Positions 4,075 through 20,778 of a DNA stretch of 64,000 nt are shown in pieces. Positions within the stretch are counted from its first letter, which is position 1. The number at the start of each line of letters is the position of its first letter. The notes under the pieces were generated by a model that worked only from the letters and a program-made list of their open reading frames with translations, was not told the DNA's origin and did not search any database. Source of the stretch: Muribaculaceae bacterium (lineage in GTDB: Bacteria > Bacteroidota > Bacteroidia > Bacteroidales > Muribaculaceae); assembly GCA_023665425.1 (NCBI GenBank), contig JAMPDX010000001.1:811988-875987 (forward strand). Direction: 5' to 3'. The position numbers and the translations under genes were made by a program.

Positions 4075-7000
4075 TCATTTACGCATTTCTTTAGTGACAG
4101 AACCATCCTTGTGGCGGATGATGTTGATACCGCTCTTGAGCGATTGCAGGCGGCGGCCGGCAGCATCATAGATGCTCATGACACCATCCTTGACGTAATC
4201 GTAGATCGCATCCAGAGTTGAGGTGTGAGCCTTGGAAATCTCATGGATGTTATTGTCGGTATCGGTGAACATTGCATCGGAGATGGTGAGGTCACCCTTA
4301 CCCTCAACTTGGATGAAGAGGATAGTACCATCCTGGCCGGTAAAGACTGCATTCTGCATGGAGGCGAGGATGACGCGGCTGTAGTCGTAGTTGTCAAACA
4401 GATATGCGTCATGTGCCTCTGTGCGCTCTACAGTAGCCACACCTGTCACCTTGGCATCGCCGGAGGTGCGGATGTCAAACTGTGCTGCTGTGTAAGCGGT
4501 CATGTTGGAGAGTGCTACAGCGTATGTGCGTACACCATCCTCTTCGCCTACGAGAGCTACTGACATTGAGTCATCACTCTTGACAGCCGGCTTGTAGGCC
4601 TTCACACGTACCACTTGTACTTCATCACCCAGGATCATGGAGATGAGGGAGGTGACGTCGGCCACATTGAGCTTGTCATTGCCATCAACATCGGCGGCAC
4701 ATGCCTGGCGAGGATTCTCGGCATAGAGCTCATCGTAAGTCATGCCCTCACCAATAAAGTTGATGAGCATCTGTACGTCAAGCACATTGACTTCGCCATT
4801 CTCATCGAGGTCAACATCGCCAACCACAAATGAGTTATCCTGAGCTGAATCGTTGATCTTCTTAAATTCCTCAACCAAGGCTTTGGCCTCCTCGGCAATC
4901 TGAGCCAGGCGGTCATCGTCGGCATAACGTGACTCTAATTGCAGGTTCTCAAGAGTATCGTTCAGTGTATCGAACTGCTTTTTGAGCTCTGCGCGTACAG
5001 CCGGCACAATAGAGAGGTTTGTCAGCTTATCATTAGCATCATTTCTGGCCTCAGTGGCATTGCTGAGCTCTGCATTAGCCAAATACTTGACGGTTTTGTG
5101 CTTGTATTTGGCGATATCAGACTCAATTTCATCACCCTTGAGCAGTGTGCTCTCAGCAGTGAGGGCGTATGCTGCCTTGTCACTTTCGAGCTGAGCAAGA
5201 GCATCATCGAGCAGATTCTGTATTCTTTCAGCGGTAGGACTGAGTATCTCGGCGATATTATAGCCATAGCCTTCGGCCAGTGTCTTGGCATCCTCAAACT
5301 CTTTGAGCAGCTCCTCATACTGAGCATACAGCACGGCATACTGATTGTCGCTTGCCTCTTGCTGAGCCTTCTGCTCTTGTGCTTTCTGCTCCTCAGCTGC
5401 AACCTTAGTGTTGAGCTCGTTGAGAGCTGTCTCTATCTCATTGAGAGTCTTGGTGTAATAGCCCTCACGTGCCAAGATGCGGTCTCCATCGTCGCTCCAA
5501 TCTACCTTGGTGTCGTCGAGTTCTGACTGAAGAGCCTCATACTCACCGGCAAACATCTCTTGGACGCTATCCATACATCCGTCGAGTGTGGCTTTGCCGC
5601 TGTCAATTTTCGATTTGAGTGTATTATAATTATTGTTGAGCTTGTCAAGCAGAGCAGTAGCGGGATTAGGCTCTATGGGATTTTGCTTCTGGCCCCATGC
5701 AGTCTTCAGCATGACATACAGGCGGCAGAGCTCTGTCTCATAACCAACCAGCTCATCCTTCTGTGCGGCAGGATTTGCAGAGTCGTAGTTTCCGCCGAGG
5801 GCATCGATGCCATTTCCTTGCTTGGTGATTTGAGCATCGATATTGGGGTAAGTCTCGCCCTCAGGGAGAGTAGCATCAGCCTCGTAGGCATCGTTGAATG
5901 CAACCTTAGTATTGTTGAGCAGAGTGCGCAAGAAGAACACCTCGGCATCATAAGCAGTCGTATAGGCTTTGTTTATCTCACCTATGATACCCTCGTACTC
6001 ACCCTCAAGGCCTTCATCACCGAATGCAGTGCCCAGACGGCCCAGATTAGCTTTTACGGTAGCTTCGAGCAGCTCGATAGCCTCGCGGATATTCTTAAGT
6101 TCTCTCTCCAGAATTTTCTCCGGACTATCCTCCTTACTTTTCTCTGTGACTGCGCAGCCACTCAGGCTGTTGCAGTAGTCTACAAGAGCCTCGTAAGTTG
6201 AATTCATGTCAGGCAGCCACTTGTCATAGAAGTTATTCTGGAGCGTTTGATCCTCAACATTGAGGTCATTGATCTTCTTGACTTCATCGCGCAAGCCCTG
6301 CAGGTTCTCGATTATAGCATCAAGGGTTTCCTTATCCTCTTTATACTCATTGATGAGGTCTTTGCTATCAATAGCCTGTTGATTAAGCGCAATAGCAGTG
6401 TTCTCATATTCTTGGAAGGCAGTGTTTACGGCAGCCTTGACATCGGGGTCTGCATTATCATAAGAGGCGATATCGGCCTTCAGCTCCTTGATGGTCTTGT
6501 CTGCGATCTCCCATGTAGCAGTCCATGCATCCTCAGCAAACTTCTGAAGGTCAATGGCTCCGGCTACTTCATCGAGCTCGTTGCATATCTCATCCATCTT
6601 CTTTGCCAAATGCTCTTCTTCACCTACTGCGTCATAATATCTATGTGCTTGGGCCAGATAAGATATGGCTTCTTTCAGGTAGTCTTCAGGGTCAATGCCT
6701 GCATTGGTCAGAGCTTTATCTGCATCGCTAATTGCAGTCTCAGCCTTTCCATTCAGCTCGTCATAATATTTAGCTGCCAATGAGTCTAACTGATCCCACA
6801 GATCGCTTAGATCTGCTTCGATGCTATCATGGATTGCAACGCATTTATCTTTCCATTCTTGATACTCATCGTTGGTGATTACATGGTTGTCTGCAGTCCA
6901 CGCAGCAAACGCCTTCTTACCTTCATCGTCCAGGTTATGGATTTCCTGGTAGTATTTGAATAGAGTCTCGTGGCGCTTTACTTCGTCGTGTATATAAGCT

Positions 7001-10000
7001 CTCCAACCGTGATTTTCTTCGGAATCTCCCTCTCCATAGTAGTAAGTATTATATACTTTTATAGCATCACGATACTGGCTTAGGAGACTGTTGATCTTGT
7101 CGTTCCAATCACCTGTAGTAGTATTGTTAGCGGTTTCTACAGCCTTGTGCAGACCATTCTCATAGAAGAATTCGTTGTATTGGTCTTGAGCCAAATCCTC
7201 TATGCGCTGATATTCAGCCATGATGTCTGAGTGGGCACCATTTGAATTACCTTTGCCATACTCATTGGTAACTACTACATTTTCAGCAGCGATGTCATTG
7301 TCAATGAGGTTTCGCAGAGGAGTGGTCCATTTGTCAATAACTTCCTGGCTCAGGCCGGCTTCGATTGCACTCTTAGTAATAGCAGCGATCACACTCTCGA
7401 TATAGGTGCGCACCTCTTTCTCACGAACAATCTGGTCATTGTGTGCCTTATTGTTCTTTTCGATGTCCATACGAGTATTGGCGATATTGCCAATAAGGTT
7501 TTGTACCCGATAAGTATAGCCTTCCTCAGCGCTCATGTCGGCAACGACGGTGCCGTCAGCAAGAGACTTCTCAAGGGCATCTTTGATTGTGTTCCACTCG
7601 GACTGAATACCGGCGATAACACCTTTCTCGCCGCCATAGTATTCCAATGCCGGAGGAAGAGAAGTGTTCTCATTATATGCAGTCAGATTATCAATCTGAG
7701 TCTGCAAATAGTCGAGAGTGGAGACAAGGCTATCGTATGCAGCCTGGTTGGCTTTAGCAACTGTGAGTTTCTTATTATACTCGGCGAGCTTATCAAGGAA
7801 CTTGATGATTTTGCCATCTACAACACCGAGGTCCTTGGTGGTGGCTGTATCAACTATCTCGGCCAAGATGTTAGTGAGCTCAGTTTCCAGAGGTTTGGTA
7901 GTAGCGGTAGCTGTTCCCAAAGTAAACTTGGCTACGTTGGTTACATTGTCAGCCACAGCCTGGTCATAAGCGGCGATGAACGCATTAAGTTCCTTCTGAG
8001 CATAGTCGCCGTTGAGCTTTGAAGCCTCATAAGCGAATTTCTGCTCTACAGAGGAGACTGTTATTGTCTCGTTGCCGTCAGTATATTGCAGCTCGGTGAT
8101 ATTCTGGAGCTTATTCTTAAGGGCAATAAGGAGGTCCCAACTATCCTGACCTTTCGCACGTTTTGCCTCATTAAGTGATGTCTTGTATCCGACGAGTTCC
8201 TTGTAGAACTTGCCGGACTCACCTGCATAGTCCTCAAGATATTTTGCCTTAAGATCTATTACAGACTGCAGTGTCTTGATCTCCTTGCCGTTGACAAAGG
8301 CAGTGAAGTCGGTAAAGTTACTATTAAAAGTATTGAGTTTCTTTATAACTGTTACAAAGTCAGCTGCCATATTCTCAGCGTTCTCCTGAGTATCGCTGAT
8401 GGCTGTTTTGATAGCATCGGTAACAGCGCTATCATCGCATTGATCTTTTGTCAGAGCGAGAATACCATTCTTGATAGTGTCGAAGCCGGTTTGCCACTTG
8501 TCAATGATGTTGACTTCATTCTCATTCAAGAGCGTGGCTGTTTCGCCATCACCGGCATTAAGATTCTTGACAGCAGTAACAGCTGGCTCCCACCACTCAA
8601 TGAGCAGATTGTTAACAGTCGCAGCCTTAGCACACAATGTGTTGATGTCGTTGATCTTTTTATTAATATCGGCTATTTGAGAAGTGTAATCATCATCATC
8701 AAGATTCAGAATATGTTTCTCATATTTGCCATCCACATAAGTGCTGAATGTATTGATTGCAGTACCCAGAGCAGACACCTCTGCATAGAATTCTGATGCA
8801 AAAGATGCATCAACAAACATATTGTTGAAATTACTATACTGGGCATTGAAATCGTTGATCTGCTGCTGAGCCGTAGTCATGTTCTCATTCTGAGTCTCGA
8901 CGAGGTTATTGAGAGCCTCGGTCATGGATGTAAACTTAGTGATTACAGCCTCAAGTTTGTCCTTGTTCTCATCTTTTACGGTAGCCCATGCACCCTCCGG
9001 GAACAGATAGCCCTTGCCGGTATTATATTCTGCATTGGCGCCTTTGTTTGAGAAAAGGTCGTTGCCATCGGAGGTGGTGAAACCTACGTTCTCCTCACTC
9101 TTGGCGATATCCTCATATACTGTGGGGAACTTGTCAACTCCTTTAGCAGCATTGAGAGCTTCTATGTAGGCATTGTATTCATTCTCAAGCTTGGTGTTGA
9201 GGATGAAGTTTACCTCATAATACAGGTTATAGTTGGCCTTCAGCTGATTAAAGGCTGCGTTGAGTTTTGTGTTCGTGGCATTAAGCTCCTCGTACTGAGA
9301 TGCGAAAGTGATGTCCTTTCTCAGGCCCTCTCTCTTAGACCATTTGTCGTCGTCGTAGGGGAAGGCCTTCTTAATATCGGCCTCATAGTCTTCAATAGCA
9401 GTCTTTTGAGCTTCGGCTTCGCTCAGCAGGTCTGCTTTAACCTCGTCGGGAGCCTGTTCCCAAGTATTGATGTCATTAATCAGAGTATTGATAGCCTCGA
9501 CGAGTTTACCCTGTCCGTCAAGAAGAGAAGTGCGGTCTGCCAGATTGGCAAGATACTTGTCGAAGATAGTATTCTCATTCAATACTTCTTCGTTATATGT
9601 ATTGATCTCTGCCCCAAGGGCGGTTAAATATGCTTGAAGGTCGTTAGTCACCTTGTAGAAGCCATATTTTTTGTATGTAGCAATCGACTCGCTAAGTGAT
9701 GCAGTACCACCAATCTTGAGAACCTCTTGCCATACATTATCCCAGGCAGTGACTGTCTGGCCATCTGCTCCTGAGGTCTCGTAGTTTGCGAGTTTGTTTT
9801 CGATTACAGATTTTTTATTTCTGAGCTTATCAGCCTCCTCGAAGCCATCGTCAGCATTAACATCTTCCAGTGCTATATCATTGAGCCCTGCAAGTTGTTT
9901 CTGAAGGTCTGCTGTAACAGCCTTTGCATCGAACACCAGCTTGATAGTTTGGCCTACGAATGAGAAGCCCATAGACTTGTCATCCGCACCAATCTCAAGT

Positions 10001-10350
10001 GTGGCGCCGGCATCGCCGGTAATTTTGAATGAGTAGGAATATCCGGCTGTGCCTGAACTTCCTTCGTCAAGAGAGAGTGTATCGCCATTTACTTTGATGT
10101 AGCAATTGACAGGCTTTGCCGAAAATACAATTTTGTATTTGCCAACGGGAAAATTTGCAGCTTCCAAGTTTGTGGTAATTGAACCGGTACCTACGGTACA
10201 AGTGTAACTGCCACCCTCCCATTTGTTCTGATCTCCGGTAGCACCATATTGATCCCACGAAGTCTTTGTAGGGAATCCTATATTGATGTCAGCGAGAGCC
10301 GGAAAGGCTATCGGGGTCATCAAAAGAGGAATTAGGACTTTCTTTTGCAT
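4075..10350 (-). CDS. Giant (2091 aa) secreted alpha-helical fibre-like protein: signal peptide, N-terminal beta-rich head, ~1650 aa helical region, dockerin, cohesin-like module, T9SS-like tail
   Basis: Uninterrupted 6.3-kb ORF with ATG at 10350 and signal peptide MQKKVLIPLLMTPIAFPALA. The long central region is nearly free of Pro, Gly and Cys and rich in Asp, Glu, Asn, Lys, Ala, Leu and Tyr. C-terminal modules are read from the translation. Confidence 0.9.
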   Translation of the reverse strand: MQKKVLIPLLMTPIAFPALADINIGFPTKTSWDQYGATGDQNKWEGGSYTCTVGTGSITTNLEAANFPVGKYKIVFSAKPVNCYIKVNGDTLSLDEGSSGTAGYSYSFKITGDAGATLEIGADDKSMGFSFVGQTIKLVFDAKAVTADLQKQLAGLNDIALEDVNADDGFEEADKLRNKKSVIENKLANYETSGADGQTVTAWDNVWQEVLKIGGTASLSESIATYKKYGFYKVTNDLQAYLTALGAEINTYNEEVLNENTIFDKYLANLADRTSLLDGQGKLVEAINTLINDINTWEQAPDEVKADLLSEAEAQKTAIEDYEADIKKAFPYDDDKWSKREGLRKDITFASQYEELNATNTKLNAAFNQLKANYNLYYEVNFILNTKLENEYNAYIEALNAAKGVDKFPTVYEDIAKSEENVGFTTSDGNDLFSNKGANAEYNTGKGYLFPEGAWATVKDENKDKLEAVITKFTSMTEALNNLVETQNENMTTAQQQINDFNAQYSNFNNMFVDASFASEFYAEVSALGTAINTFSTYVDGKYEKHILNLDDDDYTSQIADINKKINDINTLCAKAATVNNLLIEWWEPAVTAVKNLNAGDGETATLLNENEVNIIDKWQTGFDTIKNGILALTKDQCDDSAVTDAIKTAISDTQENAENMAADFVTVIKKLNTFNSNFTDFTAFVNGKEIKTLQSVIDLKAKYLEDYAGESGKFYKELVGYKTSLNEAKRAKGQDSWDLLIALKNKLQNITELQYTDGNETITVSSVEQKFAYEASKLNGDYAQKELNAFIAAYDQAVADNVTNVAKFTLGTATATTKPLETELTNILAEIVDTATTKDLGVVDGKIIKFLDKLAEYNKKLTVAKANQAAYDSLVSTLDYLQTQIDNLTAYNENTSLPPALEYYGGEKGVIAGIQSEWNTIKDALEKSLADGTVVADMSAEEGYTYRVQNLIGNIANTRMDIEKNNKAHNDQIVREKEVRTYIESVIAAITKSAIEAGLSQEVIDKWTTPLRNLIDNDIAAENVVVTNEYGKGNSNGAHSDIMAEYQRIEDLAQDQYNEFFYENGLHKAVETANNTTTGDWNDKINSLLSQYRDAIKVYNTYYYGEGDSEENHGWRAYIHDEVKRHETLFKYYQEIHNLDDEGKKAFAAWTADNHVITNDEYQEWKDKCVAIHDSIEADLSDLWDQLDSLAAKYYDELNGKAETAISDADKALTNAGIDPEDYLKEAISYLAQAHRYYDAVGEEEHLAKKMDEICNELDEVAGAIDLQKFAEDAWTATWEIADKTIKELKADIASYDNADPDVKAAVNTAFQEYENTAIALNQQAIDSKDLINEYKEDKETLDAIIENLQGLRDEVKKINDLNVEDQTLQNNFYDKWLPDMNSTYEALVDYCNSLSGCAVTEKSKEDSPEKILERELKNIREAIELLEATVKANLGRLGTAFGDEGLEGEYEGIIGEINKAYTTAYDAEVFFLRTLLNNTKVAFNDAYEADATLPEGETYPNIDAQITKQGNGIDALGGNYDSANPAAQKDELVGYETELCRLYVMLKTAWGQKQNPIEPNPATALLDKLNNNYNTLKSKIDSGKATLDGCMDSVQEMFAGEYEALQSELDDTKVDWSDDGDRILAREGYYTKTLNEIETALNELNTKVAAEEQKAQEQKAQQEASDNQYAVLYAQYEELLKEFEDAKTLAEGYGYNIAEILSPTAERIQNLLDDALAQLESDKAAYALTAESTLLKGDEIESDIAKYKHKTVKYLANAELSNATEARNDANDKLTNLSIVPAVRAELKKQFDTLNDTLENLQLESRYADDDRLAQIAEEAKALVEEFKKINDSAQDNSFVVGDVDLDENGEVNVLDVQMLINFIGEGMTYDELYAENPRQACAADVDGNDKLNVADVTSLISMILGDEVQVVRVKAYKPAVKSDDSMSVALVGEEDGVRTYAVALSNMTAYTAAQFDIRTSGDAKVTGVATVERTEAHDAYLFDNYDYSRVILASMQNAVFTGQDGTILFIQVEGKGDLTISDAMFTDTDNNIHEISKAHTSTLDAIYDYVKDGVMSIYDAAGRRLQSLKSGINIIRHKDGSVTKEMRK
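4078..4215 (-). other. T9SS-type C-terminal sorting domain (putative)
   Basis: ...VMSIYDAAGRRLQSLKSGINIIRHKDGSVTKEMRK is similar in pattern to the tail of the neighbouring 930-aa protein. Confidence 0.55.
4231..4569 (-). other. Cohesin-like beta module following the dockerin
   Basis: SMSVALVGEEDGVRTYAVALSNMTAYTAAQFDIRTSGDAKVTGV...GTILFIQVEGKGDLTISDAMF. By-eye resemblance to cohesin. Confidence 0.4.
4621..4821 (-). other. Dockerin module (duplicated Ca-binding segment)
   Basis: GDVDLDENGEVNVLDVQMLINFI ... ADVDGNDKLNVADVTSLISMILG. Both halves fit the dockerin type I repeat. Anchor checked on DNA: ctcatcgaggtcaacatcgcc at 4801-4821 is the reverse complement of GGC GAT GTT GAC CTC GAT GAG. Confidence 0.75.
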
Positions 10351-12518: not shown

Positions 12519-12950
12519 TTATTTCTGATGGTTGAGGGCATTAAAGGCCACGGCATACATATGTATCTGCTTGAGCATGGCCACCAAGCCGTTGGAGCGC
12601 GTGGGGGAGAGGTTCTCTTTCAGGCCGATACGCTCTATGAAGTAAAGGTCGGCATCGAGGATTTCGTGTGGTGTGCGGTGATTGAGCACACGCATGAGCA
12701 GTGCCACGATACCCTTTACAATCATGGCGTCTGAGTCGGCCTCGAAGTTGATGTATCCCTCATTGTCTTGCTGAGCCTCTATCCACACACGGCTCTGGCA
12801 TCCCTCGATCAAGTTGGCCGGAGTCTTGTATTTCTCCTCCATCGGGGGCATCTGGCTGCCGAGCTCTATGATGTATGCATAGCGGTCCATCCAGTCGGTC
12901 AGACCTTCGAATTCTTCAATTATTTCGTCTTGTACTTCGTTAATACTCAT
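12519..12950 (-). CDS. sufE: SufE-like cysteine desulfuration protein
   Basis: 143 aa with the EGCQSRVW active-site Cys motif and typical SufE length. Confidence 0.8.
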   Translation of the reverse strand: MSINEVQDEIIEEFEGLTDWMDRYAYIIELGSQMPPMEEKYKTPANLIEGCQSRVWIEAQQDNEGYINFEADSDAMIVKGIVALLMRVLNHRTPHEILDADLYFIERIGLKENLSPTRSNGLVAMLKQIHMYAVAFNALNHQK

Positions 12951-13018
12951 AGTGTTATGCTTTTAGGCTACATCCCCGCAGGGCATACTGAGGGCATCTA
13001 TCCTTGCTGTTCAATTCG

Positions 13019-13026
13019 CAAAGATA
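13019..13026 (-). promoter_or_regulatory. Candidate -7 box (TATCTTTG) upstream of sufE
   Basis: Plus strand reads caaagata. Confidence 0.35.
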
Positions 13027-13059
13027 CAACAAATATCTTGAATTAGCCGTATTTCGATA

Positions 13060-13710
13060 CTAAAAAGTTTCGCCAAGCTCCGGCACCGGCTGTTCGCGCA
13101 ACTTATACAACAGTTTGCGTTTGAGTCCCGGATTGCGGTCTGTCAGTTCGCTCAGCTCCCAGTGATGTCCGGCTTCCTCCTTGAGAAGAGGGGAGGTAGC
13201 CTCGGAGTCGGTAAGGTTCCATGTCAGGAGCACCACTTTAGTTTTCAGAGCCTTAAGTTTGCGGACAAGCATCTCATGGTCAGCGTCCCCGGTGATGAGC
13301 ACCACATAGTCAAACTTTCGGAACGTGGCCAGCTCGAAAGCCTCGAGGGCAAACCACACATCAATACCCTTTTCTATTACCTCTGTCTGCCCGTTACGTT
13401 CCACCTCTCTCAGATGCTTGTAATGAAACACCACATCATTCTCAATGAGGGTATCCTCAAATTTTCGCTCATTGTAGAGCAGGTGCTTGTCGTAAGCCTC
13501 CTTCACACGAAAGCGGCCGCGGAAGTAGTGTGCCTCTGTTATCTGGCAATCGCGCGGATTTACATGCTCCTCGCTTGCCAAACGCTCCGTTATGAAATCA
13601 AACAATGAGCGCACACGTATAATACTGTTCTCCAACTTCTTAAGCGAACGGTTCACTTTGGCATAATACCCGCCGTCAATAAACACCCCGATAGATATAT
13701 AATTCTGCAT
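13060..13710 (-). CDS. NYN-domain (LabA-like) predicted ribonuclease
   Basis: From ATG 13710: MQNYISIGVFIDGGYYAKV...EKGIDVWFALEAF...VVLITGDADHEMLV. This is the acidic-residue pattern of the NYN/LabA fold. The track ORF extends to an upstream alternative start at 13776. Confidence 0.8.
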   Translation of the reverse strand: MQNYISIGVFIDGGYYAKVNRSLKKLENSIIRVRSLFDFITERLASEEHVNPRDCQITEAHYFRGRFRVKEAYDKHLLYNERKFEDTLIENDVVFHYKHLREVERNGQTEVIEKGIDVWFALEAFELATFRKFDYVVLITGDADHEMLVRKLKALKTKVVLLTWNLTDSEATSPLLKEEAGHHWELSELTDRNPGLKRKLLYKLREQPVPELGETF

Positions 13711-13810
13711 AATATTTCCGTTTATGAGTATAACACTTCTGCACACTTCGATGTTTACAGCAAAGGTCTGCGGCAAAACCGCAGACCTTCCCTAAGTATT
13801 AAACAAGCTC

Positions 13811-14866
13811 TTAGTATTTGGTGGTCTTTATGATACAGCCGTTTCGGTCCATCTCAATTCTGTAGCGCGACTTGTCTTTCAGTACAATGGTGAATATGGT
13901 GCCGAGACGCCCACCGTACAGCATGTCACCCCCGGTTATATATCCTTTGTCTTGCATTCTCTGAAGAATTGCCAACGGACGCCCTACAAAATCGCGTTTC
14001 TTGTAAACCTCGGCCGCAACATCTCTCGGACCTTGATGTTCCTCCCTTATTTTTTTAAGCTGTCGGTCATAGTATGTATAGATGAAGGTATTGTCACCTA
14101 TTCTGTCTGCTGCTTTCCAACCGACATGATTGCCTTTCTGGTCGTAATATGCTTTTAATTGAACGCCGTCGGTCAAAGTGATATGATTACCGGAGGGCGT
14201 GTAGTAAGTTCTTATGTTACCATTAACGGTTTTGGTGACAAGAAAATCGCCGAGTCCCGCACGTATATAGCTTACGTTTCCCGCACCAAAGGGATAGGTG
14301 TGTATTATTTCCCCTTCTGTATTAGCCAAAATTGTGTTATTGTCATCTAAAGTTGCTAAAACATAGTCTACATTGCGGAAAATAAGAATATCTTTGTATT
14401 TCACAGGCAGAATTTCTTTTCCGTCGGCTTTTAAAAATCCCCAATTGCCTTTGTTATCTTTTACAGCCATGTAACCTCCTTTGTAGTATTGGGAACTGTT
14501 GGTAGTATTTTCAATTTCTGAATATTTTCCTATCACTTCACCGGTCTCCACGTTTACAAGCACTATTGAGTTGTCATCATCGGAATTTAATTCGCGATAC
14601 AATTGTGCAAGTTTGTCTTGGCTGCCTTCTATATTACTGAATGAGGAGTATATTCCAATAAAATTCAGGTCTTTGTCAAAGAAAGCCGAATAGGAATTCG
14701 TATATGTTATATATTTTTTAGTCCATAACGTGTCTGATTCCCATATATTGCCTGTTTTTGTCAGTGGACTTGTTTCATTATTCTCAATGGAATAGATGAA
14801 GTATTGCCCGGCTTTTTCAATCAGATAGTACCCGTCTTTCACCTCAGAAACCAATTTGAAATTCAT
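13811..14866 (-). CDS. WG-repeat (KWG-type beta-repeat) protein with no signal peptide
   Basis: 351 aa with repeats such as GNWGFLKADGKEILPVKYKD. The region is AT-rich. Confidence 0.75.
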   Translation of the reverse strand: MNFKLVSEVKDGYYLIEKAGQYFIYSIENNETSPLTKTGNIWESDTLWTKKYITYTNSYSAFFDKDLNFIGIYSSFSNIEGSQDKLAQLYRELNSDDDNSIVLVNVETGEVIGKYSEIENTTNSSQYYKGGYMAVKDNKGNWGFLKADGKEILPVKYKDILIFRNVDYVLATLDDNNTILANTEGEIIHTYPFGAGNVSYIRAGLGDFLVTKTVNGNIRTYYTPSGNHITLTDGVQLKAYYDQKGNHVGWKAADRIGDNTFIYTYYDRQLKKIREEHQGPRDVAAEVYKKRDFVGRPLAILQRMQDKGYITGGDMLYGGRLGTIFTIVLKDKSRYRIEMDRNGCIIKTTKY

Positions 14867-14917
14867 CGGTGAACTGCTTACTTCGCTGTTTATAAGGTCA
14901 ACCAGAACTCTGCATCC

Positions 14918-15391
14918 TTAGGTTTCATTCTGCAAGAGCAGGTATAGATGTTTTCCGTCATTAGACCATACATGGTTTGAAGTGTTTGCGGCAAAAGGCA
15001 GTACTGTCACTCCCTTTTTAGTTATAAATATATATTGGTATTTACTTTCTTCGTTATTGCGTACTGATGAAATTATCAAGTCATCAGCTAAAGGTTGCAG
15101 GTTATTTACATACAGGAATTTTTCCGGTATCACTTGCTTGCCTTTCGCGTCTATCAAGATACTGTAGCGGTCAGCGCCGTCTGCCCATGCGTATTGTTTG
15201 CCGTTCGCCTTGAGCTCGGCAAACTGTCCGGCCCATGTGTATGCCGGCTTGATTTTCCATTTCCCCGTTTAGTCAACATATCCCCACAAGCCGGTTTTGG
15301 GGTCTTGATGTGGTGTGAGATTGGTTTTGGCAGCCCATGATGTGACGGCGCACATCATCACTGCGAATAAGATTAAAAGTCGTCTTTTCAT
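14918..15391 (-). pseudogene. Secreted WG-repeat protein gene interrupted by an in-frame TAA at codon 41
   Basis: Hand translation from ATG 15391 gives MKRRLLILFAVMMCAVTSWAAKTNLTPHQDPKTGLWGYVD*TGKWKIKPAYTWAGQF.... This continues in the same frame into track ORF 14918..15157. The stop is at 15271-15269. Confidence 0.65.
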
Positions 15392-15410
15392 GTGTTTGTT
15401 GTATTGGTTT

Positions 15411-16187
15411 TTAATTTGTTGTTTCTTTTGAGATTACTGTTGTCATAAACCTGAATTTTGAGCCGATTGCCACTCCGAATTTAGATATGTCTGTTTTGTC
15501 GTATGACGTATCTTCCCATGTGAATTTATATGTGTTGTCTAATGAGAAAGACCGGTGGCTGTCAATAATCTTTTTACTTATGCTCTGCCAATGCACATCT
15601 TTTACCTCGTGATTTTCATATAATGCAAACCGCGAATGAGCCACCGTATCGGATTTAGGCTTTTCCCAAAACAGATGATTGTTGGTAATTATCATCGCAA
15701 TGCCCCCTACTATATTGGGATACATTTTGGTCAATGCCTCTATTCTCCGTATGTCCTTGCAATAATTATATGAGACAATATCCACAGCTCCTTGATTTTT
15801 GAGCATGCAAACTTGCGATTTCATCTTGCTGCCGAAACGAGTATTATTCCACAGCCCTTTCGGCAGATTGCGTGTCGCATATTTGAGCTCCAACAAAGCA
15901 TAACGTTCATCTTGGCGAACTACAATATCAACATAAATATCATTCGCCCATGGAAAATTTCCCCGGGAGTCTGTATCGTCCTCAAAACATAGTTCATTGA
16001 AAGGAACCGCGTATTCAACCATAACATCGTCGTATCTGTTCTCGCAGCTTTTCAAGTACATGGCTAAACGTACCTGCAAATCCCTTTCGTTCATCAGGGG
16101 AGTGTCAAGGTCTTTTGCGAACCGGGAAACGTCTTCATGGAGCGATTGCAGTAAATCCGTATGGTCAGTTGTTGTCATCATCTTCAT
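15411..16187 (-). CDS. PD-(D/E)xK-like nuclease-fold protein (258 aa), function unknown
   Basis: Motif order is E58 (VMVEYAV) ... D87 (IYVDIVV) ... E100-L-K102 (ALLELKY) with canonical spacing, followed by a ~90-aa C-terminal domain of unknown type. Confidence 0.6.
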   Translation of the reverse strand: MKMMTTTDHTDLLQSLHEDVSRFAKDLDTPLMNERDLQVRLAMYLKSCENRYDDVMVEYAVPFNELCFEDDTDSRGNFPWANDIYVDIVVRQDERYALLELKYATRNLPKGLWNNTRFGSKMKSQVCMLKNQGAVDIVSYNYCKDIRRIEALTKMYPNIVGGIAMIITNNHLFWEKPKSDTVAHSRFALYENHEVKDVHWQSISKKIIDSHRSFSLDNTYKFTWEDTSYDKTDISKFGVAIGSKFRFMTTVISKETTN

Positions 16188-16416
16188 GGACTATATGCAA
16201 ATATTTTGAAAATTCCCCGAAGAAATCGCGGTTCAGTACCATACAGATTTTGAGCAACAGACTGGTCTCGATGGAAGTTCTGCTGAAAATGTCGTAGACA
16301 TTGCGCCGGTCAGTGTTGATTTTGCGTGCGAAATCAATAACCGGAATTTGTTGTCTGCGTACTTCGTTCTCAATAAGGTTACCTATATGCACGGAATGGG
16401 TAGAGTCGTCTCTCAT
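16165..16416 (-). CDS. Small XRE-family helix-turn-helix protein (83 aa)
   Basis: IGNLIENEVRRQQIPVIDFARKINTDRRNVYDIFSRTSIETSLLLKICMVL fits the XRE HTH pattern. Its 3-prime end overlaps the nuclease-like ORF start by 23 nt. Confidence 0.7.
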   Translation of the reverse strand: MRDDSTHSVHIGNLIENEVRRQQIPVIDFARKINTDRRNVYDIFSRTSIETSLLLKICMVLNRDFFGEFSKYLHIVHEDDDNN

Positions 16417-16643
16417 AATTTTGTGTCAATTACTAGCCCGCAGAAGTGTTGCTGCAAGCAGATGTAATCCAAATCTCGCAAACGGGATACGAGACAACTC
16501 TAAATGACTATGTCCGTGAACTGCACGGGCATGGTGAATGACCGCCGTTCCATCTCTTTCAGCTTAAGGCTGAATTGCCGGGGAGATGTATCATTCACAA
16601 CAAATCGCCGTTTGAATACATATTGACGATTTGTTTTGCGTTG

Positions 16644-16651
16644 CAAAAATA
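16644..16651 (-). promoter_or_regulatory. Candidate -7 box (TATTTTTG) that could drive the HTH-nuclease island leftward
   Basis: Plus strand reads caaaaata, about 230 nt upstream of the HTH start. Confidence 0.3.
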
Positions 16652-16778
16652 ATAGAAAAAAATCTATCGGCAATATTCCGGGTGTGACAAATATTTTCAC
16701 ACTCGTTGTACCGTTGACGAATTCCGTATAAAATTATGTGATTTTTTCGGAATATTTTGTCGTGTCAGAAAAAAATAC

Positions 16779-16786
16779 TAATTTTG
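16779..16786 (+). promoter_or_regulatory. -7 box TAATTTTG upstream of rplM
   Basis: Exact TAnnTTTG match 110 nt upstream of the GTG start. Confidence 0.45.
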
Positions 16787-16896
16787 CAAGCCGATTATAT
16801 CCAAATCAACAGGGCGGCGTGCGCTTGTATAGGTTTTGGCCGACCTTCAGGCAGACTGTCGCTATGTGTTTAACTATTTAATAATCAATAATTAAA

Positions 16897-17373
16897 GTGG
16901 ATTCTTTAAGCTATAAGACTCTCTCCGCTACTCCCGCTACAATCGATAAGAAGTGGGTGGTGGTAGACGCTACCGACCAGGTGCTCGGTCGTCTGTGCGC
17001 GAAAATCGCTCTGATACTTCGCGGCAAAAACAAACCCGGCTACACCCCCAATATGGACTGCGGCGACAATGTTATCGTTATCAATGCCGATAAGGTGAAG
17101 ATGACCGGTGCCAAGTTTACTGACCGTGTCTATCTGCGCTACACCGGTTATCCCGGTGGTCAGCGTGAGTTCACTCCCGAGACTCTGATGAAGAAGAGCT
17201 TCAAGGTGCGTGCCAACGGCCGTCACCCCCTCTTCGACAAGGTGGTTAAGGGTATGCTCCCCAAGAACAAACTCGGTGCCCGTCAGCTCGACAACCTCTA
17301 TGTCTACAATGGTGCTGAGCATCCCCACCAGAACGTGAACGCTGAAGTAATCGACATTAACAAAGTGAAATAA
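16897..17373 (+). CDS. rplM: 50S ribosomal protein L13
   Basis: KKWVVVDATDQVLGRLCAKIALILRGKNKPGYTPNMDCGDNVIVINADKV is the L13 hallmark. GTG start. Confidence 0.95.
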   Translation: MDSLSYKTLSATPATIDKKWVVVDATDQVLGRLCAKIALILRGKNKPGYTPNMDCGDNVIVINADKVKMTGAKFTDRVYLRYTGYPGGQREFTPETLMKKSFKVRANGRHPLFDKVVKGMLPKNKLGARQLDNLYVYNGAEHPHQNVNAEVIDINKVK

Positions 17374-17381
17374 GAAGAGAG

Positions 17382-17768
17382 ATGGAACAAATCAATGCAA
17401 TAGGTCGTCGTAAGGCCGCTGTAGCCCGTGTATATGTGTCTGAGGGTTCAGGTGTGATTACTATCAATCACCGTCCGCTGGAGGTTTACTTCCCCTCTTC
17501 AATCCTGCAGTACATCGTTAAGCAGCCTCTGCTCACTCTGGGTGCTGTGGAGAAATATGATATCAAGGTGACCCTGCGTGGCGGCGGTTACAAAGGTCAG
17601 GCAGAAGCACTGCGTCTGGCTATAGCCCGTGCGCTGGTTAAGATTAATCCTGAGGATAAGTCAGCCCTCCGTGCTGAAGGCTTCATGACTCGCGACGCAC
17701 GTTCTGTAGAGCGTAAAAAGCCCGGTCAGCCCAAGGCTCGCAAGCGCTTCCAGTTCTCAAAGCGTTAA
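17382..17768 (+). CDS. rpsI: 30S ribosomal protein S9
   Basis: 128 aa ending ...KPGQPKARKRFQFSKR. Follows rplM as in the conserved operon. Confidence 0.95.
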   Translation: MEQINAIGRRKAAVARVYVSEGSGVITINHRPLEVYFPSSILQYIVKQPLLTLGAVEKYDIKVTLRGGGYKGQAEALRLAIARALVKINPEDKSALRAEGFMTRDARSVERKKPGQPKARKRFQFSKR

Positions 17769-18011
17769 TCTTCAGAGAGCTTGAAAGCAGCTTGAACTTA
17801 TTGAAATATACGGCAGAGTGTCCTTCTTGGGACACCCTGCCAATTCAAGTATATTCCTCTCTTGCCCTCAATCCTCTCTTGCCTCAAAAGAGTTTAGTAT
17901 CTAAATCTGCGGGATGGACACGTTCCCTACCCGTAAGGTTTCATTGGCATCTCCATAATGAAATCTGCAAGATTGTTTTTTTAAAGAACGTAAACAAATT
18001 TTTCAAAACAA

Positions 18012-20051: not shown

Positions 20052-20778
20052 GTTTGTCCGACAGGGGCATAATTTAATGGGGGCAAGTCCCTAATGCGGC
20101 CTAATAGCGGCAAGCTTACAGCCAAAGACAAGCTGCCAATGGCGACATTGGGTGTGAAGGAAGTCGGCGGCAAAGCACTGGCCTGACGTACAGAAACTAA
20201 ACAAGAATACCCTTTGTTGGAACAAATTTTGTCGCCAAGCAATCTCAATGCCGCATACATCAGAAGACCGAAGCCAAGATGCGCCGCCGACTCAAAGCCA
20301 TCACTTCAAGAAGCAATGGAATGGGATATGCCAAACGAAATACCACCCTCAAAGAATATCTGTCAGGGTGGACGGAATATTACAAACTTGCCGACATGGG
20401 AAGCAAAGTCAAAGAGATAGGCCAATGGCTACGCCGCCGTATCCGCATGTGTATATGGAAAGCATGGAAGCGCCCGAGGACGCGCGTGAAGAGCCTAATC
20501 AAATGCGGCATACCGAAGCAGAAAGCCTATGAATGGGGCAACACAAGTCAAGGTTACTGGCACATAGCACATAGTTGGATAGCATCAAGGGCAATGCCCG
20601 ACGATGCACTATACCGCGCTGGCTATGTGTGGATAGGTTGTTATTACAAGGCTTCGGCCTTGCCGAAAGGTTGAGGAACCGCCGTATGCGGAACCGCTTG
20701 TACGGTGGTGTGAGAGGATAAGTAAACATGAAGGTAGGAGATAAACACTCTATGATTAGTGTTCACCTCCTACTCGAT
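20052..20778 (+). mobile_element. Degenerate group II intron: 5-prime end GTTTG..., internally deleted reverse-transcriptase/maturase ORF, domain V-like and terminal hairpins
   Basis: The RT N-terminus LLEQILSPSNLNAAY (20217-) is joined out of frame to a maturase/X-domain remnant. A DV-like 32-nt hairpin accgccgtatgcggaaccgcttgtacggtggt lies at 20678-20709, and a terminal hairpin ggtaggag...ctcctac at 20733-20773. At 727 bp it is far too short for an intact intron. Confidence 0.7.
20279..20674 (+). pseudogene. Remnant of the group II intron-encoded protein; only the C-terminal maturase (X/GIIM) domain remains
   Basis: KAITSRSNGMGYAKRNTTLKEYLSGWTEYYKLADMGSKVKEIGQWLRRRIRMCIWKAWKRPRTRVKSLIKCGIPKQKAYEWGNTSQGYWHIA is the characteristic maturase-domain pattern. 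No RT palm motifs (YADD) are present. Confidence 0.75.

What the first reader, a model, noticed from the sequence alone, without database searches (positions are those of the whole stretch)
15411..16416. Overlapping HTH + PD-(D/E)xK-like nuclease pair with no methyltransferase: candidate solitary defence nuclease or toxin module
An 83-aa XRE-type HTH gene ends 23 nt inside the start of a 258-aa ORF. That ORF's N-terminal half has the ordered residues E58, D87 and E100-x-K102 of the restriction-endonuclease fold (VMVEYAV, IYVDIVV, ALLELKY). A ~90-aa C-terminal domain of unknown type follows. The layout copies the controller (C) protein plus endonuclease arrangement of type II restriction-modification systems, but no methyltransferase gene is present anywhere in the island. 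Three readings are possible: (a) a modification-dependent (type IV-like) nuclease that needs no cognate methylase, (b) a new HTH-controlled abortive-infection or toxin-antitoxin-like module, or (c) an orphan remnant of an R-M system. Location in an AT-rich island supports a mobile or defence role.
Basis: partly seen in the sequence, partly recalled or inferred. Interest (0 to 1): 0.7.

Follow-up and report, generated by a model that had tools for sequence, protein, structure and literature searches.

The report
RNA-and-HTH-controlled nuclease operon core
A small DNA-binding regulator and an unclassified restriction-enzyme-fold nuclease form a real, conserved gene pair in a gut Muribaculaceae genome. 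Relatives show it is the trimmed core of a larger Bacteroidales operon headed by a previously undescribed structured RNA leader, not a leftover restriction-modification system.

Summary
An 83-aa HTH gene (16165-16416, minus) overlaps a 258-aa ORF (15411-16187) by 23 nt. E58, D87, E100 and K102 are invariant in 32 homologues. A confident AlphaFold model has the alpha-beta-beta-beta-alpha-beta core order, and every weak structural or profile hit is a PD-(D/E)xK nuclease. No Pfam, NCBIfam, PADLOC or PHROGs family matches.

The interpretation needs revision. No DNA methyltransferase signal lies near any of the 45 Bacteroidales homologues, so R-M decay is rejected. The HTH is missing near 38 of 48 loci, so an obligate toxin-antitoxin pair is unlikely. 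The C-terminal region matches no known fold, so a modification-dependent reading has no support.

The family is not solitary either. In 30 of 48 loci it sits in a shuffled operon with TerB, an OmpA-anchored protein, small basic proteins and three unknown small domains. Those three domains are also fused directly to the nuclease in about 25 family members.

Unexpectedly, the operon is headed by a Bacteroidetes promoter, a TGTGA-N9-TCACA palindrome and a roughly 190-nt structured leader RNA. The leader has strong covariation and no Rfam match.

Most likely this is a tightly regulated nuclease effector of a stress or defence-type operon, here reduced to its core. The function is inferred, not shown.

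The parts
16683..16701 (-). Perfect palindrome TGTGA-N9-TCACA, about 50 nt upstream of the promoter -7 box. Candidate operator for the HTH protein.
   Evidence: It is the only match in the 64-kb window, against 0.07 expected. It is perfect at the same position in L004, L045 and L027, with 1-2 mismatches in L028, L168 and L026. None of 2000 random 170-nt windows has a perfect match. It occurs in 7 of 12 HTH-linked leaders and 0 of 5 HTH-less leaders. Binding has not been tested.
16644..16651 (-). Bacteroidetes-type -7 promoter box TATTTTTG (consensus TAnnTTTG), followed by the conserved sequence CAACGCAAAA.
   Evidence: A box is present at a fixed distance upstream of the leader core in all 17 instances that have enough upstream sequence. 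Its identity as the Bacteroides promoter consensus rests on established knowledge. No TSS data are available.
16470..16640 (-). Structured 5' leader RNA. It has a variable 5' hairpin, a long-range helix enclosing an internal hairpin, another variable hairpin, and a terminal 6-bp hairpin with conserved loop UCCCGUU followed by a U-rich run (terminator-like).
   Evidence: The covariance-model hit at 16470-16600 scores 117 bits, E 1e-25. Across 18 instances, 94.8% of cells are paired and 18 of 27 pairs carry compensatory double changes. None of 500 shuffles reaches this, and slid registers give 39-64% paired. RNAalifold finds 12 compensatory pairs in 7 sequences. The single-sequence MFE is -50.7 kcal/mol, z -2.5. 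There is no Rfam match at E<=1.
16165..16416 (-). 83-aa XRE/Cro-type helix-turn-helix regulator, the first gene of the operon.
   Evidence: On its own it matches HTH_26 at E 0.018. At family level, HTH_26 matches 4 of 10 members (best 1.6e-4) and HTH_3 matches 3 of 10. The best PDB profile hit is the XRE regulator 6f8s, E 0.1. One source names the 89% homologue 'XRE family transcriptional regulator'. dN/dS is 0.14.
15411..16187 (-). 258-aa nuclease of an unannotated PD-(D/E)xK family. It has N-terminal helices (E34), a core with E58, D87 and E100-x-K102, and a conserved C-terminal beta-rich region (W200, Y220, W224) of unknown fold.
   Evidence: These residues are invariant in 32 homologues. 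In 83 more diverse members D87 is invariant and the others are at least 90% conserved. The AF2 model has pLDDT 85 and pTM 0.86 with the order H-H-E-E-E-H-E. Foldseek top hits are all PD-(D/E)xK proteins but weak. Sub-threshold Pfam hits are DUF4143, NERD, REase-ARP and DUF234. The best PDB profile hit is Cas4, aligned over the D..ExK motif. dN/dS is 0.17.
13811..15391 (-). WG-repeat secreted-protein gene starting 20 nt downstream of the nuclease gene. Two in-frame stop codons interrupt it here, so it is a pseudogene or a truncated product.
   Evidence: It aligns in a single frame with the intact 528-aa L004 protein. The translation shows stops after codon 40 and near codon 157. WG_beta_rep matches the L004 protein at E 3.8e-13. 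A signal-peptide-like N-terminus was seen by eye.

Best explanation
The pair is the minimal core of a conserved, variable operon of gut Bacteroidales.

Gene 2 encodes a catalytically competent member of a previously unannotated PD-(D/E)xK (restriction-endonuclease-fold) family. It most likely cleaves nucleic acid in a Mg2+-dependent way, using E34/E58, D87 and E100-x-K102 (inferred).

Gene 1 encodes a small XRE-type HTH regulator.

Transcription starts at a Bacteroidetes-type promoter. That promoter is flanked by a TGTGA-N9-TCACA palindrome, the probable HTH operator (inferred). Transcription then runs through a roughly 190-nt structured leader RNA whose terminal hairpin plus U-run looks like a conditional terminator (structure shown by covariation; function inferred). 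The nuclease would therefore be kept under dual protein and RNA control and made only on a signal.

In most relatives the same nuclease is co-transcribed with, or covalently fused to, three uncharacterised small domains. Its neighbours there are TerB, a membrane-anchored OmpA-domain protein, small basic proteins, an ion channel and sometimes a PifA/QatA-like KAP NTPase. This suggests the nuclease is the effector arm of a membrane-linked stress or defence-type system. In this genome the system is reduced to leader, HTH and nuclease, plus a decaying surface-protein gene.

It is not a restriction-modification remnant and not an obligate HTH-toxin pair.
For: Fold and active site:
- The catalytic residues are invariant.
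- The AF2 topology is canonical.
- All Foldseek top hits are PD-(D/E)xK proteins: AF1548, the R2 RLE domain, HincII, MGME1, RecB/AddA, McrC, Cas4 and EcoRI.
- Weak family-level Pfam and PDB hits are all PD-(D/E)xK.

The genes are functional: dN/dS is 0.14-0.17.

Operon context:
- 30 of 48 loci carry block members within 5 kb. Counts are Ndom 24, rep128 21, p103 20, TerB 15, OmpA 15 and K84 12.
- The gene order is shuffled and the flanks differ between loci.
- About 25 of 178 family members fuse the nuclease to rep128, Ndom, p103 or TerB.
- The same block sits at the edge of the one 'viral' contig hit.

Regulation:
- The leader RNA is found at the head of 12 nuclease loci. In L007 and L175 it lies directly in front of the nuclease with no HTH.
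- Covariation is strong.
- The palindrome tracks with presence of the HTH.

Defence flavour:
- The KAP NTPase matches PDC-S20, PifA and QatA at E 1e-30 to 1e-32.
- A block membrane protein appears to be the source of the PDC-S01 hits.
- TerB occurs in the Bunzi and Shango defence systems (10.1101/2022.05.11.491447).

Against R-M: no MTase motif or PADLOC MTase hit lies near any Bacteroidales homologue.
Against: - No nuclease activity, substrate, phenotype or expression data exist.
- The structural and profile matches to known nucleases are all below significance (best Foldseek E 0.018).
- The window itself contains none of the block partners, so transferring function from the block is an inference.
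- The defence association is weak. The KAP NTPase lies within 5 kb of the nuclease in only 2 of the 48 loci, and in the viral-contig locus L175. PADLOC does not recognise the nuclease or the small domains. There is no phage hit.
- The block lies among housekeeping genes without mobility genes or flanking repeats.
- The U-run after the terminal hairpin is weak in the window's own copy.
- The palindrome is missing in 5 of 12 HTH-linked leaders.
Confidence: 0.45

Rival explanations
1. A stand-alone modification-dependent (type IV-like) restriction nuclease. The C-terminal region would read a modified base and the PD-(D/E)xK core would cut invading DNA, so no methyltransferase is needed.
For: The catalytic motif is intact and there is no methyltransferase. 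The conserved aromatic residues W200, Y220 and W224 in the C-terminal region could form a base-binding pocket (inference). Solitary nucleases such as HEC-06 and PD-T4-3 are proven defences, including a Bacteroides homologue (PMC12366544).
Against: The C-terminal region modelled alone (pLDDT 80) matches nothing in the PDB; the best E is 5.6 and no SRA, EVE or YTH-type reader appears. There is no PADLOC hit, including the HEC-06, PD-T4-3 and Mrr models. This reading does not explain the fusions to rep128, Ndom and p103, or the operon context.
Confidence: 0.12
2. A two-gene toxin-antitoxin or abortive-infection module. The HTH protein would be an antitoxin and autorepressor, and the nuclease a toxin released on infection.
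For: The gene order is HTH first, with overlapping genes. The best PDB profile hit for the HTH is an XRE-family regulator. A palindromic operator candidate lies upstream. The cassette shows lower synonymous divergence than its flanks, which suggests exchange.
Against: The HTH is absent within 5 kb of the nuclease in 38 of 48 loci. In most HTH-bearing loci, one to four other genes separate it from the nuclease. The leader heads nuclease operons with no HTH in L007, L017, L018, L041 and L175. The HTH cassette also precedes unrelated cargo.
Confidence: 0.1
3. A selfish or recombination-promoting nuclease linked to variable surface-protein genes. It would make breaks that spread the cassette between conserved housekeeping genes, or that drive exchange of the adjacent BspA-LRR or WG-repeat genes.
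For: The nuclease gene lies immediately upstream of a secreted BspA-type LRR gene in L027, L007, L030 and L008, and of the WG-repeat gene in the window and L004. The gap is 19-22 nt (4-nt overlap in L027), except 100 nt in L030. LRR genes lie one or more genes downstream in L032 and L003. Insertion sites abut conserved genes: rplM here, and glnS, rplS and rpsO elsewhere. dS of the HTH and nuclease genes is 0.36, against 0.5-2.0 in the flanks. The central part of the WG gene is too diverged to align. In L174 a different 140-aa protein with a D..ExK-like motif sits in the same slot (motif seen by eye).
Against: There are no flanking repeats or integrase. Most loci have the TerB/OmpA block rather than a surface-protein gene. 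The 140-aa protein could not be confirmed as a nuclease. LRR genes are abundant in these genomes, and no background rate was measured.
Confidence: 0.13
4. An ordinary cellular nucleic-acid-processing enzyme (repair, RNA turnover or envelope-stress response) that happens to lie in a variable region and has no role in genetic conflict.
For: The loci are chromosomal and lie among housekeeping genes. The genes are under purifying selection. The family is absent from the phage collection. Its partners (OmpA, TerB, ion channel) are general stress or envelope proteins.
Against: The distribution is sporadic and divergence is fast, with about 40% identity among Bacteroidales. Architectures are shuffled and promiscuously fused. 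G+C is atypical. Defence-type genes (KAP NTPase, apparently PDC-S01) are associated.
Confidence: 0.15
5. An orphan remnant of a type II R-M system, in which a C protein and endonuclease survive after the methyltransferase was lost.
For: The layout resembles C-protein plus REase units: a small HTH upstream of, and overlapping, a PD-(D/E)xK gene.
Against: No DNA methyltransferase signal lies near any of the 45 Bacteroidales loci. The only MTases are in one distant alphaproteobacterial locus. Both genes are under purifying selection. The family has a different conserved context. An active REase without its MTase would be lethal.
Confidence: 0.02

Closest known systems
PD-(D/E)xK nuclease superfamily; nearest by weak sequence or structure signal are NERD, DUF4143, REase-ARP, DUF234, Cas4/RecB-type nuclease domains and AF1548 (PDB 1y88)
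   Same: The core order is alpha-beta-beta-beta-alpha-beta. An acidic residue sits on helix 1, an Asp on strand 2 and E-x-K on strand 3, all invariant. Every top structural hit belongs to this superfamily.
   Different: No Pfam, NCBIfam, PADLOC or PHROGs model reaches threshold. The family has its own conserved C-terminal beta-rich region with no structural match. It also has its own set of fusion partners.
Controller (C) protein plus restriction endonuclease units of type II R-M systems (for example C.PvuII/R.PvuII and C.AhdI; from established knowledge)
   Same: A small XRE-type HTH gene lies immediately upstream of, and overlaps, a PD-(D/E)xK gene. A palindromic site lies upstream of the HTH gene.
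   Different: There is no methyltransferase here or in any Bacteroidales relative. The HTH is usually absent or separated from the nuclease. The palindrome lies about 50 nt upstream of the -7 box. A long structured leader RNA intervenes.
Single-gene nuclease defences (Mrr/McrA-type type IV enzymes, HEC-06, PD-T4-3)
   Same: These are nucleases without a cognate methylase, and they can be encoded by Bacteroides (PMC12366544).
   Different: There is no match to their PADLOC models and no recognisable modified-DNA reader domain. The family is typically part of a multi-gene operon.
TerB-containing and KAP-NTPase defence systems (Shango, Bunzi, PifA, QatA, PADLOC candidates PDC-S20 and PDC-S01)
   Same: In relatives, the nuclease shares an operon with TerB and lies near a KAP NTPase homologous to PifA, QatA and PDC-S20 and near a protein that appears to match PDC-S01. 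TerB systems are proposed to survey the membrane (10.1101/2022.05.11.491447).
   Different: The helicase and ATPase partners of Shango are absent. The TerB protein matches only PDC-S48, weakly. The KAP NTPase is rare (within 5 kb in 2 of 48 loci). None of these genes is in the window.
Cis-regulatory leader RNAs (riboswitches and attenuators)
   Same: The leader sits in the 5' UTR downstream of a promoter. It has a multi-helix covarying structure with invariant loops and a terminal hairpin followed by U's.
   Different: It matches none of the 4227 Rfam families. The ligand or trans factor is unknown. The downstream genes (HTH, nuclease, small unknown proteins) give no metabolic clue.

Membership tests
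PD-(D/E)xK nuclease superfamily | Core fold alpha-beta-beta-beta-alpha-beta | tested here: met
   The AF2 model (pLDDT 85, pTM 0.86) has H34-47, E54-61, E84-92, E95-105, H135-155 and E159-168.
PD-(D/E)xK nuclease superfamily | Conserved catalytic D ... (D/E)xK on strands 2 and 3, usually with an acidic residue from helix 1 | tested here: met
   D87 lies in strand 84-92 and E100/K102 in strand 95-105. E34 sits at the start of the helix and E58 in strand 1. All are invariant in 32 sequences. D87 is invariant and the rest are at least 90% conserved in 83 sequences.
PD-(D/E)xK nuclease superfamily | Significant structural or profile similarity to an established member | tested here: inconclusive
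   The best Foldseek hit is 1y88 at E 0.018, probability 0.98. All top hits are superfamily members but none reaches E<=1e-3. Pfam hits are sub-threshold only. The PDB profile search gives Cas4 at E 0.18.
PD-(D/E)xK nuclease superfamily | Metal-dependent phosphodiester cleavage | not testable with these tools
   This needs biochemistry.
Type II R-M with controller protein | Cognate DNA methyltransferase in the same locus | tested here: not met
   There is none in the window's surroundings. No MTase motif or PADLOC MTase hit lies near any Bacteroidales homologue.
Type II R-M with controller protein | Small HTH (C protein) gene upstream of, and often overlapping, the endonuclease gene | tested here: met
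   The overlap is 23 nt and the HTH assignment is supported at family level. This arrangement holds only in the window, L004 and, loosely, L027.
Type II R-M with controller protein | C-box operator repeats at the C-gene promoter | tested here: inconclusive
   A conserved palindrome TGTGA-N9-TCACA exists upstream. It lies about 50 nt from the -7 box, is unlike known C-boxes (from memory), and binding is untested.
Type IV / modification-dependent nucleases | Recognisable modified-base reader domain (SRA, EVE/YTH, Mrr-N and similar) or NTPase partner (McrB, GmrS) | tested here: not met
   The C-terminal model has no PDB match, best E 5.6. Pfam and PADLOC give no hits. No NTPase gene lies adjacent in the window.
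Toxin-antitoxin (XRE antitoxin plus toxin) | Obligate co-occurrence of antitoxin and toxin genes across homologues | tested here: not met
   The HTH lies within 5 kb in only 10 of 48 loci and is directly adjacent in 3.
Shedu and other PADLOC or DefenseFinder nuclease systems | Match to the system's profile HMMs | tested here: not met
   PADLOC-DB v2 gives 0 families for the nuclease and the HTH. DefenseFinder was not available.
TerB defence systems (Shango, Bunzi) | TerB protein together with the system's helicase/ATPase or membrane partners in the locus | tested here: not met
   The window has no TerB gene. In relatives, TerB is present but matches only PDC-S48 weakly, and no Shango or Bunzi partner was seen.
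Known RNA families (Rfam 15) | Covariance-model match for the leader | tested here: not met
   cmscan of window 13000-18000 at E<=1 gives 0 hits.

The most novel reading that the evidence does not exclude
The HTH-nuclease pair would be the stripped-down core of an undescribed Bacteroidales conflict or stress system. In it, a new riboswitch-like leader RNA senses a signal and releases transcription of a PD-(D/E)xK nuclease effector. Three novel adaptor domains (rep128, Ndom, p103) would dock that effector onto a membrane-anchored sensor made of TerB, an OmpA-domain protein and an ion channel. Some variants would be coupled to variable BspA-LRR or WG-repeat surface-protein genes.
Probability: 0.2. 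Interest if true: 0.85.

Novelty: new variant of a known kind. Interest (0 to 1): 0.6.

Why it matters
Gut Bacteroidales are among the most abundant human and mouse symbionts, yet their immune and stress systems are poorly charted and poorly covered by tools trained on Proteobacteria.

This locus exposes three things at once:
- A sizeable nuclease family (726 clusters at 50% identity) that no profile library recognises.
- Three uncharacterised small domains that behave like adaptors. They occur alone, fused to the nuclease, fused to each other, and fused to a membrane-anchored OmpA protein.
- A strongly covarying structured RNA leader with no Rfam counterpart that heads these operons.

If the leader is a ligand- or factor-responsive switch, it gives a direct experimental handle on when these cells deploy a nuclease. 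If the operon is a defence system, it adds a Bacteroidales-specific type. It also shows that 'HTH plus nuclease without a methylase' should not be read as a decayed R-M system by default.

Tried and rejected
- **Direct family assignment.** Pfam, NCBIfam, PADLOC and PHROGs gave no hits for the nuclease. PDB sequence and profile searches gave nothing significant.
- **Fold search of the full model.** Only weak hits came back from PDB and BFVD. I use them as a consistent trend, not as proof.
- **The C-terminal region as a separate domain.** The model was acceptable (pLDDT 80) but had no structural neighbour. A known reader domain is therefore rejected.
- **Sigma-70 promoter and terminator scan.** It was not informative, because Bacteroidetes promoters differ.
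- **Phage and plasmid origin.** There was no phage hit, and only three distant plasmid hits at 25% identity. The single 'viral contig' hit is the bacterial block at a contig edge.
- **Mobility signatures.** No meaningful flanking direct or inverted repeats were found.
- **Metagenome scan for the leader.** The gapped 18-base pattern was too loose and returned mostly chance soil and marine matches. Only 7 of the 120 stretches were real by covariance model.
- **The short ORF inside the leader (MERLFFP.../MERRSF...).** It was rejected as a conserved peptide. Only the part encoded by the conserved RNA helix is shared. Lengths vary from 17 to 57 aa, and compensatory RNA changes alter the peptide.
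- **The 140-aa protein of L174 as a second nuclease family.** The motif was seen by eye only and was not confirmed.
- **Literature search.** No description of this family, block or leader was found.
Full report
**1. The observation**

Two minus-strand ORFs are present exactly as described: 16165-16416 (83 aa) and 15411-16187 (258 aa). They overlap by 23 nt. Residues E58, D87, E100 and K102 sit in the quoted peptides.

The exact proteins are annotated 'hypothetical' in a Muribaculaceae MAG. A syntenic copy with 89% protein identity exists in another MAG, between rplM and NYN/sufE. Against that copy, dN/dS is 0.14 for the HTH and 0.17 for the nuclease, so both are functional genes. The 14-17 kb stretch has 39-43% G+C, against about 50% for the window.

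**2. What the 258-aa protein is**

No Pfam, NCBIfam, PADLOC or PHROGs model recognises it.

Conservation is strong. In 32 homologues (31-89% identity) E34, E58, D87, E100 and K102 are all invariant. In 83 more diverse members (mean column identity 22%) D87 is invariant and the others are at least 90% conserved.

AlphaFold2 on the alignment gives pLDDT 85 and pTM 0.86. The element order is helix, helix, three strands, helix, strand. D87 falls on the second core strand and E100-x-K102 on the third, which is the canonical PD-(D/E)xK layout.

Foldseek finds no hit better than E 0.018. Even so, the top of both lists is made up of PD-(D/E)xK proteins:
- PDB: AF1548, the R2 RLE domain, HincII, MGME1, RecB/AddA nuclease domains, McrC, Cas4 and EcoRI.
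- Viral: exonucleases and PD-(D/E)xK or Cas4-like proteins.

Scanning family members one by one gives only sub-threshold hits. The leading ones are DUF4143, NERD, REase-ARP and DUF234. One distant member touches PDDEXK_9 and Mrr_cat. The best PDB profile hit is Cas4, aligned across the D...ExK motif.

I conclude, with about 0.85 confidence, that this is a new sequence family of the restriction-endonuclease fold with an intact active site.

The C-terminal third (conserved W200, Y220, W224) modelled on its own reaches pLDDT 80 but matches nothing in the PDB. Its type remains unknown, and no known modified-base reader is present.

**3. What the 83-aa protein is**

Alone it matches HTH_26 only weakly, at E 0.018. 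Among ten family members, HTH_26 matches four (best 1.6e-4) and HTH_3 matches three. The best PDB profile hit is an XRE-family regulator, and one source names the 89% homologue an XRE regulator. The HTH claim is moderately well supported.

**4. Context in relatives changes the interpretation**

The exhaustive search finds 726 clusters at 50% identity. Forty-eight genome loci were recovered, and almost all are gut Bacteroidales.

Clustering of the neighbours shows that the nuclease is rarely alone. In 30 of 48 non-redundant loci, it lies within 5 kb and on the same strand as members of a recurrent block whose gene order is shuffled:
- a 128-aa two-repeat protein (rep128, 21 loci);
- a Lys-rich 84-aa protein (12 loci);
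- a TerB protein (15 loci; PF05099);
- a protein with a novel N-domain, a TM segment and an OmpA domain (24 and 15 loci);
- a 103-aa protein (p103, 20 loci);
- 94-aa and 56-aa proteins;
- an Ion_trans channel, DUF4230 and a KAP NTPase.

The linkage goes beyond synteny. About 25 of 178 family representatives fuse the nuclease domain, N- or C-terminally, to rep128, Ndom or p103, and one fuses it to TerB. Some loci carry a tandem paralogue with a degenerate site (ELK to NLN) fused to an Ndom-like domain.

The HTH lies within 5 kb in only 10 of 48 loci. It is usually the first gene of the block rather than next to the nuclease.

No DNA methyltransferase motif or PADLOC MTase hit lies near any Bacteroidales homologue. 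The only ones are in a distant alphaproteobacterial locus.

These results reject R-M decay. They make an obligate HTH-toxin pair unlikely. They also show that 'solitary' describes this genome's reduced copy, not the family. None of the block partners is in the window.

**5. A second recurrent context**

In several loci the nuclease gene lies just upstream of a gene for a secreted repeat protein.
- BspA-type LRR_5 genes follow directly in L027, L007, L030 and L008 (gap 19-22 nt, a 4-nt overlap in L027, 100 nt in L030).
- In L032 and L003 the LRR gene lies one or more genes downstream.
- The WG-repeat gene follows in the window and L004.

In the window, the WG-repeat gene is in a single frame but carries two in-frame stop codons. 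The L004 copy is intact at 528 aa.

**6. An unexpected regulatory region**

Upstream of the HTH gene, loci whose proteins are only about 40% identical share conserved DNA. It has three elements:
- A palindrome, TGTGA-N9-TCACA, at window 16683-16701. It is the only match in 64 kb, against 0.07 expected. It is perfect at the same position in three other loci, while 0 of 2000 random windows has a perfect match. It is seen in 7 of 12 HTH-linked leaders and 0 of 5 HTH-less leaders.
- A Bacteroidetes -7 box, TAnnTTTG, at 16644-16651.
- A roughly 190-nt leader.

RNAalifold predicts a multi-helix fold for the leader, with 12 compensatory pairs in seven sequences. A covariance model then recovered 18 instances scoring 66-132 bits. 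On these instances:
- 94.8% of cells pair;
- 18 of 27 pairs show double compensatory changes;
- no shuffle out of 500 reaches this;
- shifted registers fall to 39-64% paired.

One caveat is that this alignment was fitted to the model.

The terminal hairpin has an invariant UCCCGUU loop followed by a U-rich run. Its CCGUU could pair with the invariant AACGG of an internal loop, which would form a pseudoknot, but this cannot be tested because neither side varies.

Rfam has no match.

The leader heads 12 nuclease loci. In L007 and L175 it directly precedes the nuclease with no HTH. Elsewhere it precedes an HTH followed by other cargo.

**7. How it most likely works**

What is shown:
- a conserved operon made of leader, HTH and nuclease;
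- an intact catalytic motif;
- purifying selection;
- a structured leader;
- co-occurrence and fusion with the block.

What is inferred:
- the HTH binds the palindrome;
- the leader acts as a conditional terminator;
- together they keep a potentially harmful nuclease off until a signal arrives;
- in full versions, the small domains recruit the nuclease to a membrane-linked TerB/OmpA/channel assembly.

A defence or stress role is suggested by several associations. The block's KAP NTPase is homologous to PifA, QatA and PDC-S20. A block membrane protein appears to be the source of the PDC-S01 hits. TerB is used in the Bunzi and Shango systems (10.1101/2022.05.11.491447). This is guilt by association only, and I give the overall model 0.45.

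Rivals, in order:
- housekeeping enzyme, 0.15;
- selfish or recombination-promoting nuclease tied to variable surface-protein genes, 0.13;
- type IV nuclease, 0.12;
- TA/Abi pair, 0.10;
- R-M remnant, 0.02.

The low synonymous divergence of the HTH and nuclease genes (dS 0.36, against 0.5-2.0 for the flanks) hints that the cassette was exchanged more recently than its surroundings.

**8. Novelty**

The nuclease is a new family of a well-known fold. The operon architecture, the three promiscuous small domains and the leader RNA are not described in any library or paper I could search. I rate the whole as a new variant of a known kind, with interest 0.6.

Noticed in passing
window 16470-16640 (minus); also L004, L007, L017, L018, L022, L026, L027, L028, L041, L045, L175 and metagenome loci L087, L103, L114, L149, L168 (two copies), L174: A candidate new structured RNA motif in the 5' leader of the operon. 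It has four covarying helices, invariant loops (GGCAAUUCGG, CUGAAAG, GGAACGGC, UCCCGUU) and a terminator-like 3' hairpin. It has no Rfam match.
   Followed up: yes
window 16683-16701: A perfect TGTGA-N9-TCACA palindrome lies about 50 nt upstream of the -7 box. It is conserved in position across loci that have the HTH gene. A second palindrome, TTTGCA-N-TGCAAA, overlaps the -7 box and transcription-start region in all instances.
   Followed up: partly
window 13811-15391 (minus): The WG-repeat secreted-protein gene just downstream of the nuclease has two in-frame stop codons (after codon 40, TAA at 15269-15271, and near codon 157). The 528-aa orthologue in L004 is intact. The central part of the gene is too diverged to align at the DNA level.
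   Followed up: partly
window 15411-16416 compared with flanks 12519-13710 and 16897-17768: Synonymous divergence from the syntenic genome L004 is 0.36-0.37 for the HTH and nuclease genes. It is 0.50-1.96 for rplM, rpsI, sufE and the NYN gene. This suggests the cassette was exchanged more recently than its surroundings.
   Followed up: partly
L001 6779-7906 and L003 6800-7534: A tandem paralogue of the nuclease has a degenerate active site (D kept, ELK changed to NLN). In L001 it is fused to a C-terminal domain resembling the N-domain of the OmpA protein. This suggests active/inactive heterodimers.
   Followed up: partly
for example L031 6578-6964, 8596-9015 and 9515-9826; fusion proteins P0037, P0040, P0051, P0060, P0101: Three small domains have no Pfam match: the rep128 unit, 'Ndom' and p103. 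They occur alone, fused to each other, fused to an OmpA anchor, and fused to either end of the nuclease. This behaviour is adaptor-like.
   Followed up: partly
L174 1959-2381 (minus); remnant at L103 1780 onward: A different 140-aa protein occupies the slot between the HTH and a BspA-LRR gene. By eye its sequence (DDxGVxLIVR...FQEIQVKS) looks like a D...ExK motif. This was not confirmed by PDB search or hhalign.
   Followed up: partly
L050, L051 and L053 (Alphaproteobacteria), the gene just downstream of the nuclease homologue: A conserved protein of about 262 aa follows the nuclease homologue. By eye it looks like an ADP-ribosylglycohydrolase (MLWGAIIGDIVGS...). L053 also has DPPY-type methyltransferases 4-5 kb away.
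   Followed up: no
L054 (Paracoccus plasmid NZ_CP102356.1) 5875-6504: A distant homologue (25% identity) lies directly after phage portal, capsid-protease and DUF2190 genes, which is a prophage-like setting.
   Followed up: no
window 20279-20674 (+): A 131-aa ORF contains only a group II intron maturase domain (GIIM, E 1e-15). It is probably a fragment of a group II intron reverse transcriptase.
   Followed up: no
window 4075-10350 (minus): A 2091-aa ORF has a dockerin type I domain as its only Pfam hit. It clustered with nothing in the fetched syntenic locus (L004/L006), where an RsmB/F-type methyltransferase gene follows the POT transporter instead.
   Followed up: no
window 13060-13710 (minus): The NYN-domain (PIN-like RNase) gene is highly conserved with L004 (95% aa identity, dN/dS 0.02) and has a weak PADLOC HEC-09 hit (E 4e-4). 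By its divergence pattern it belongs to the core genome rather than to the cassette.
   Followed up: partly
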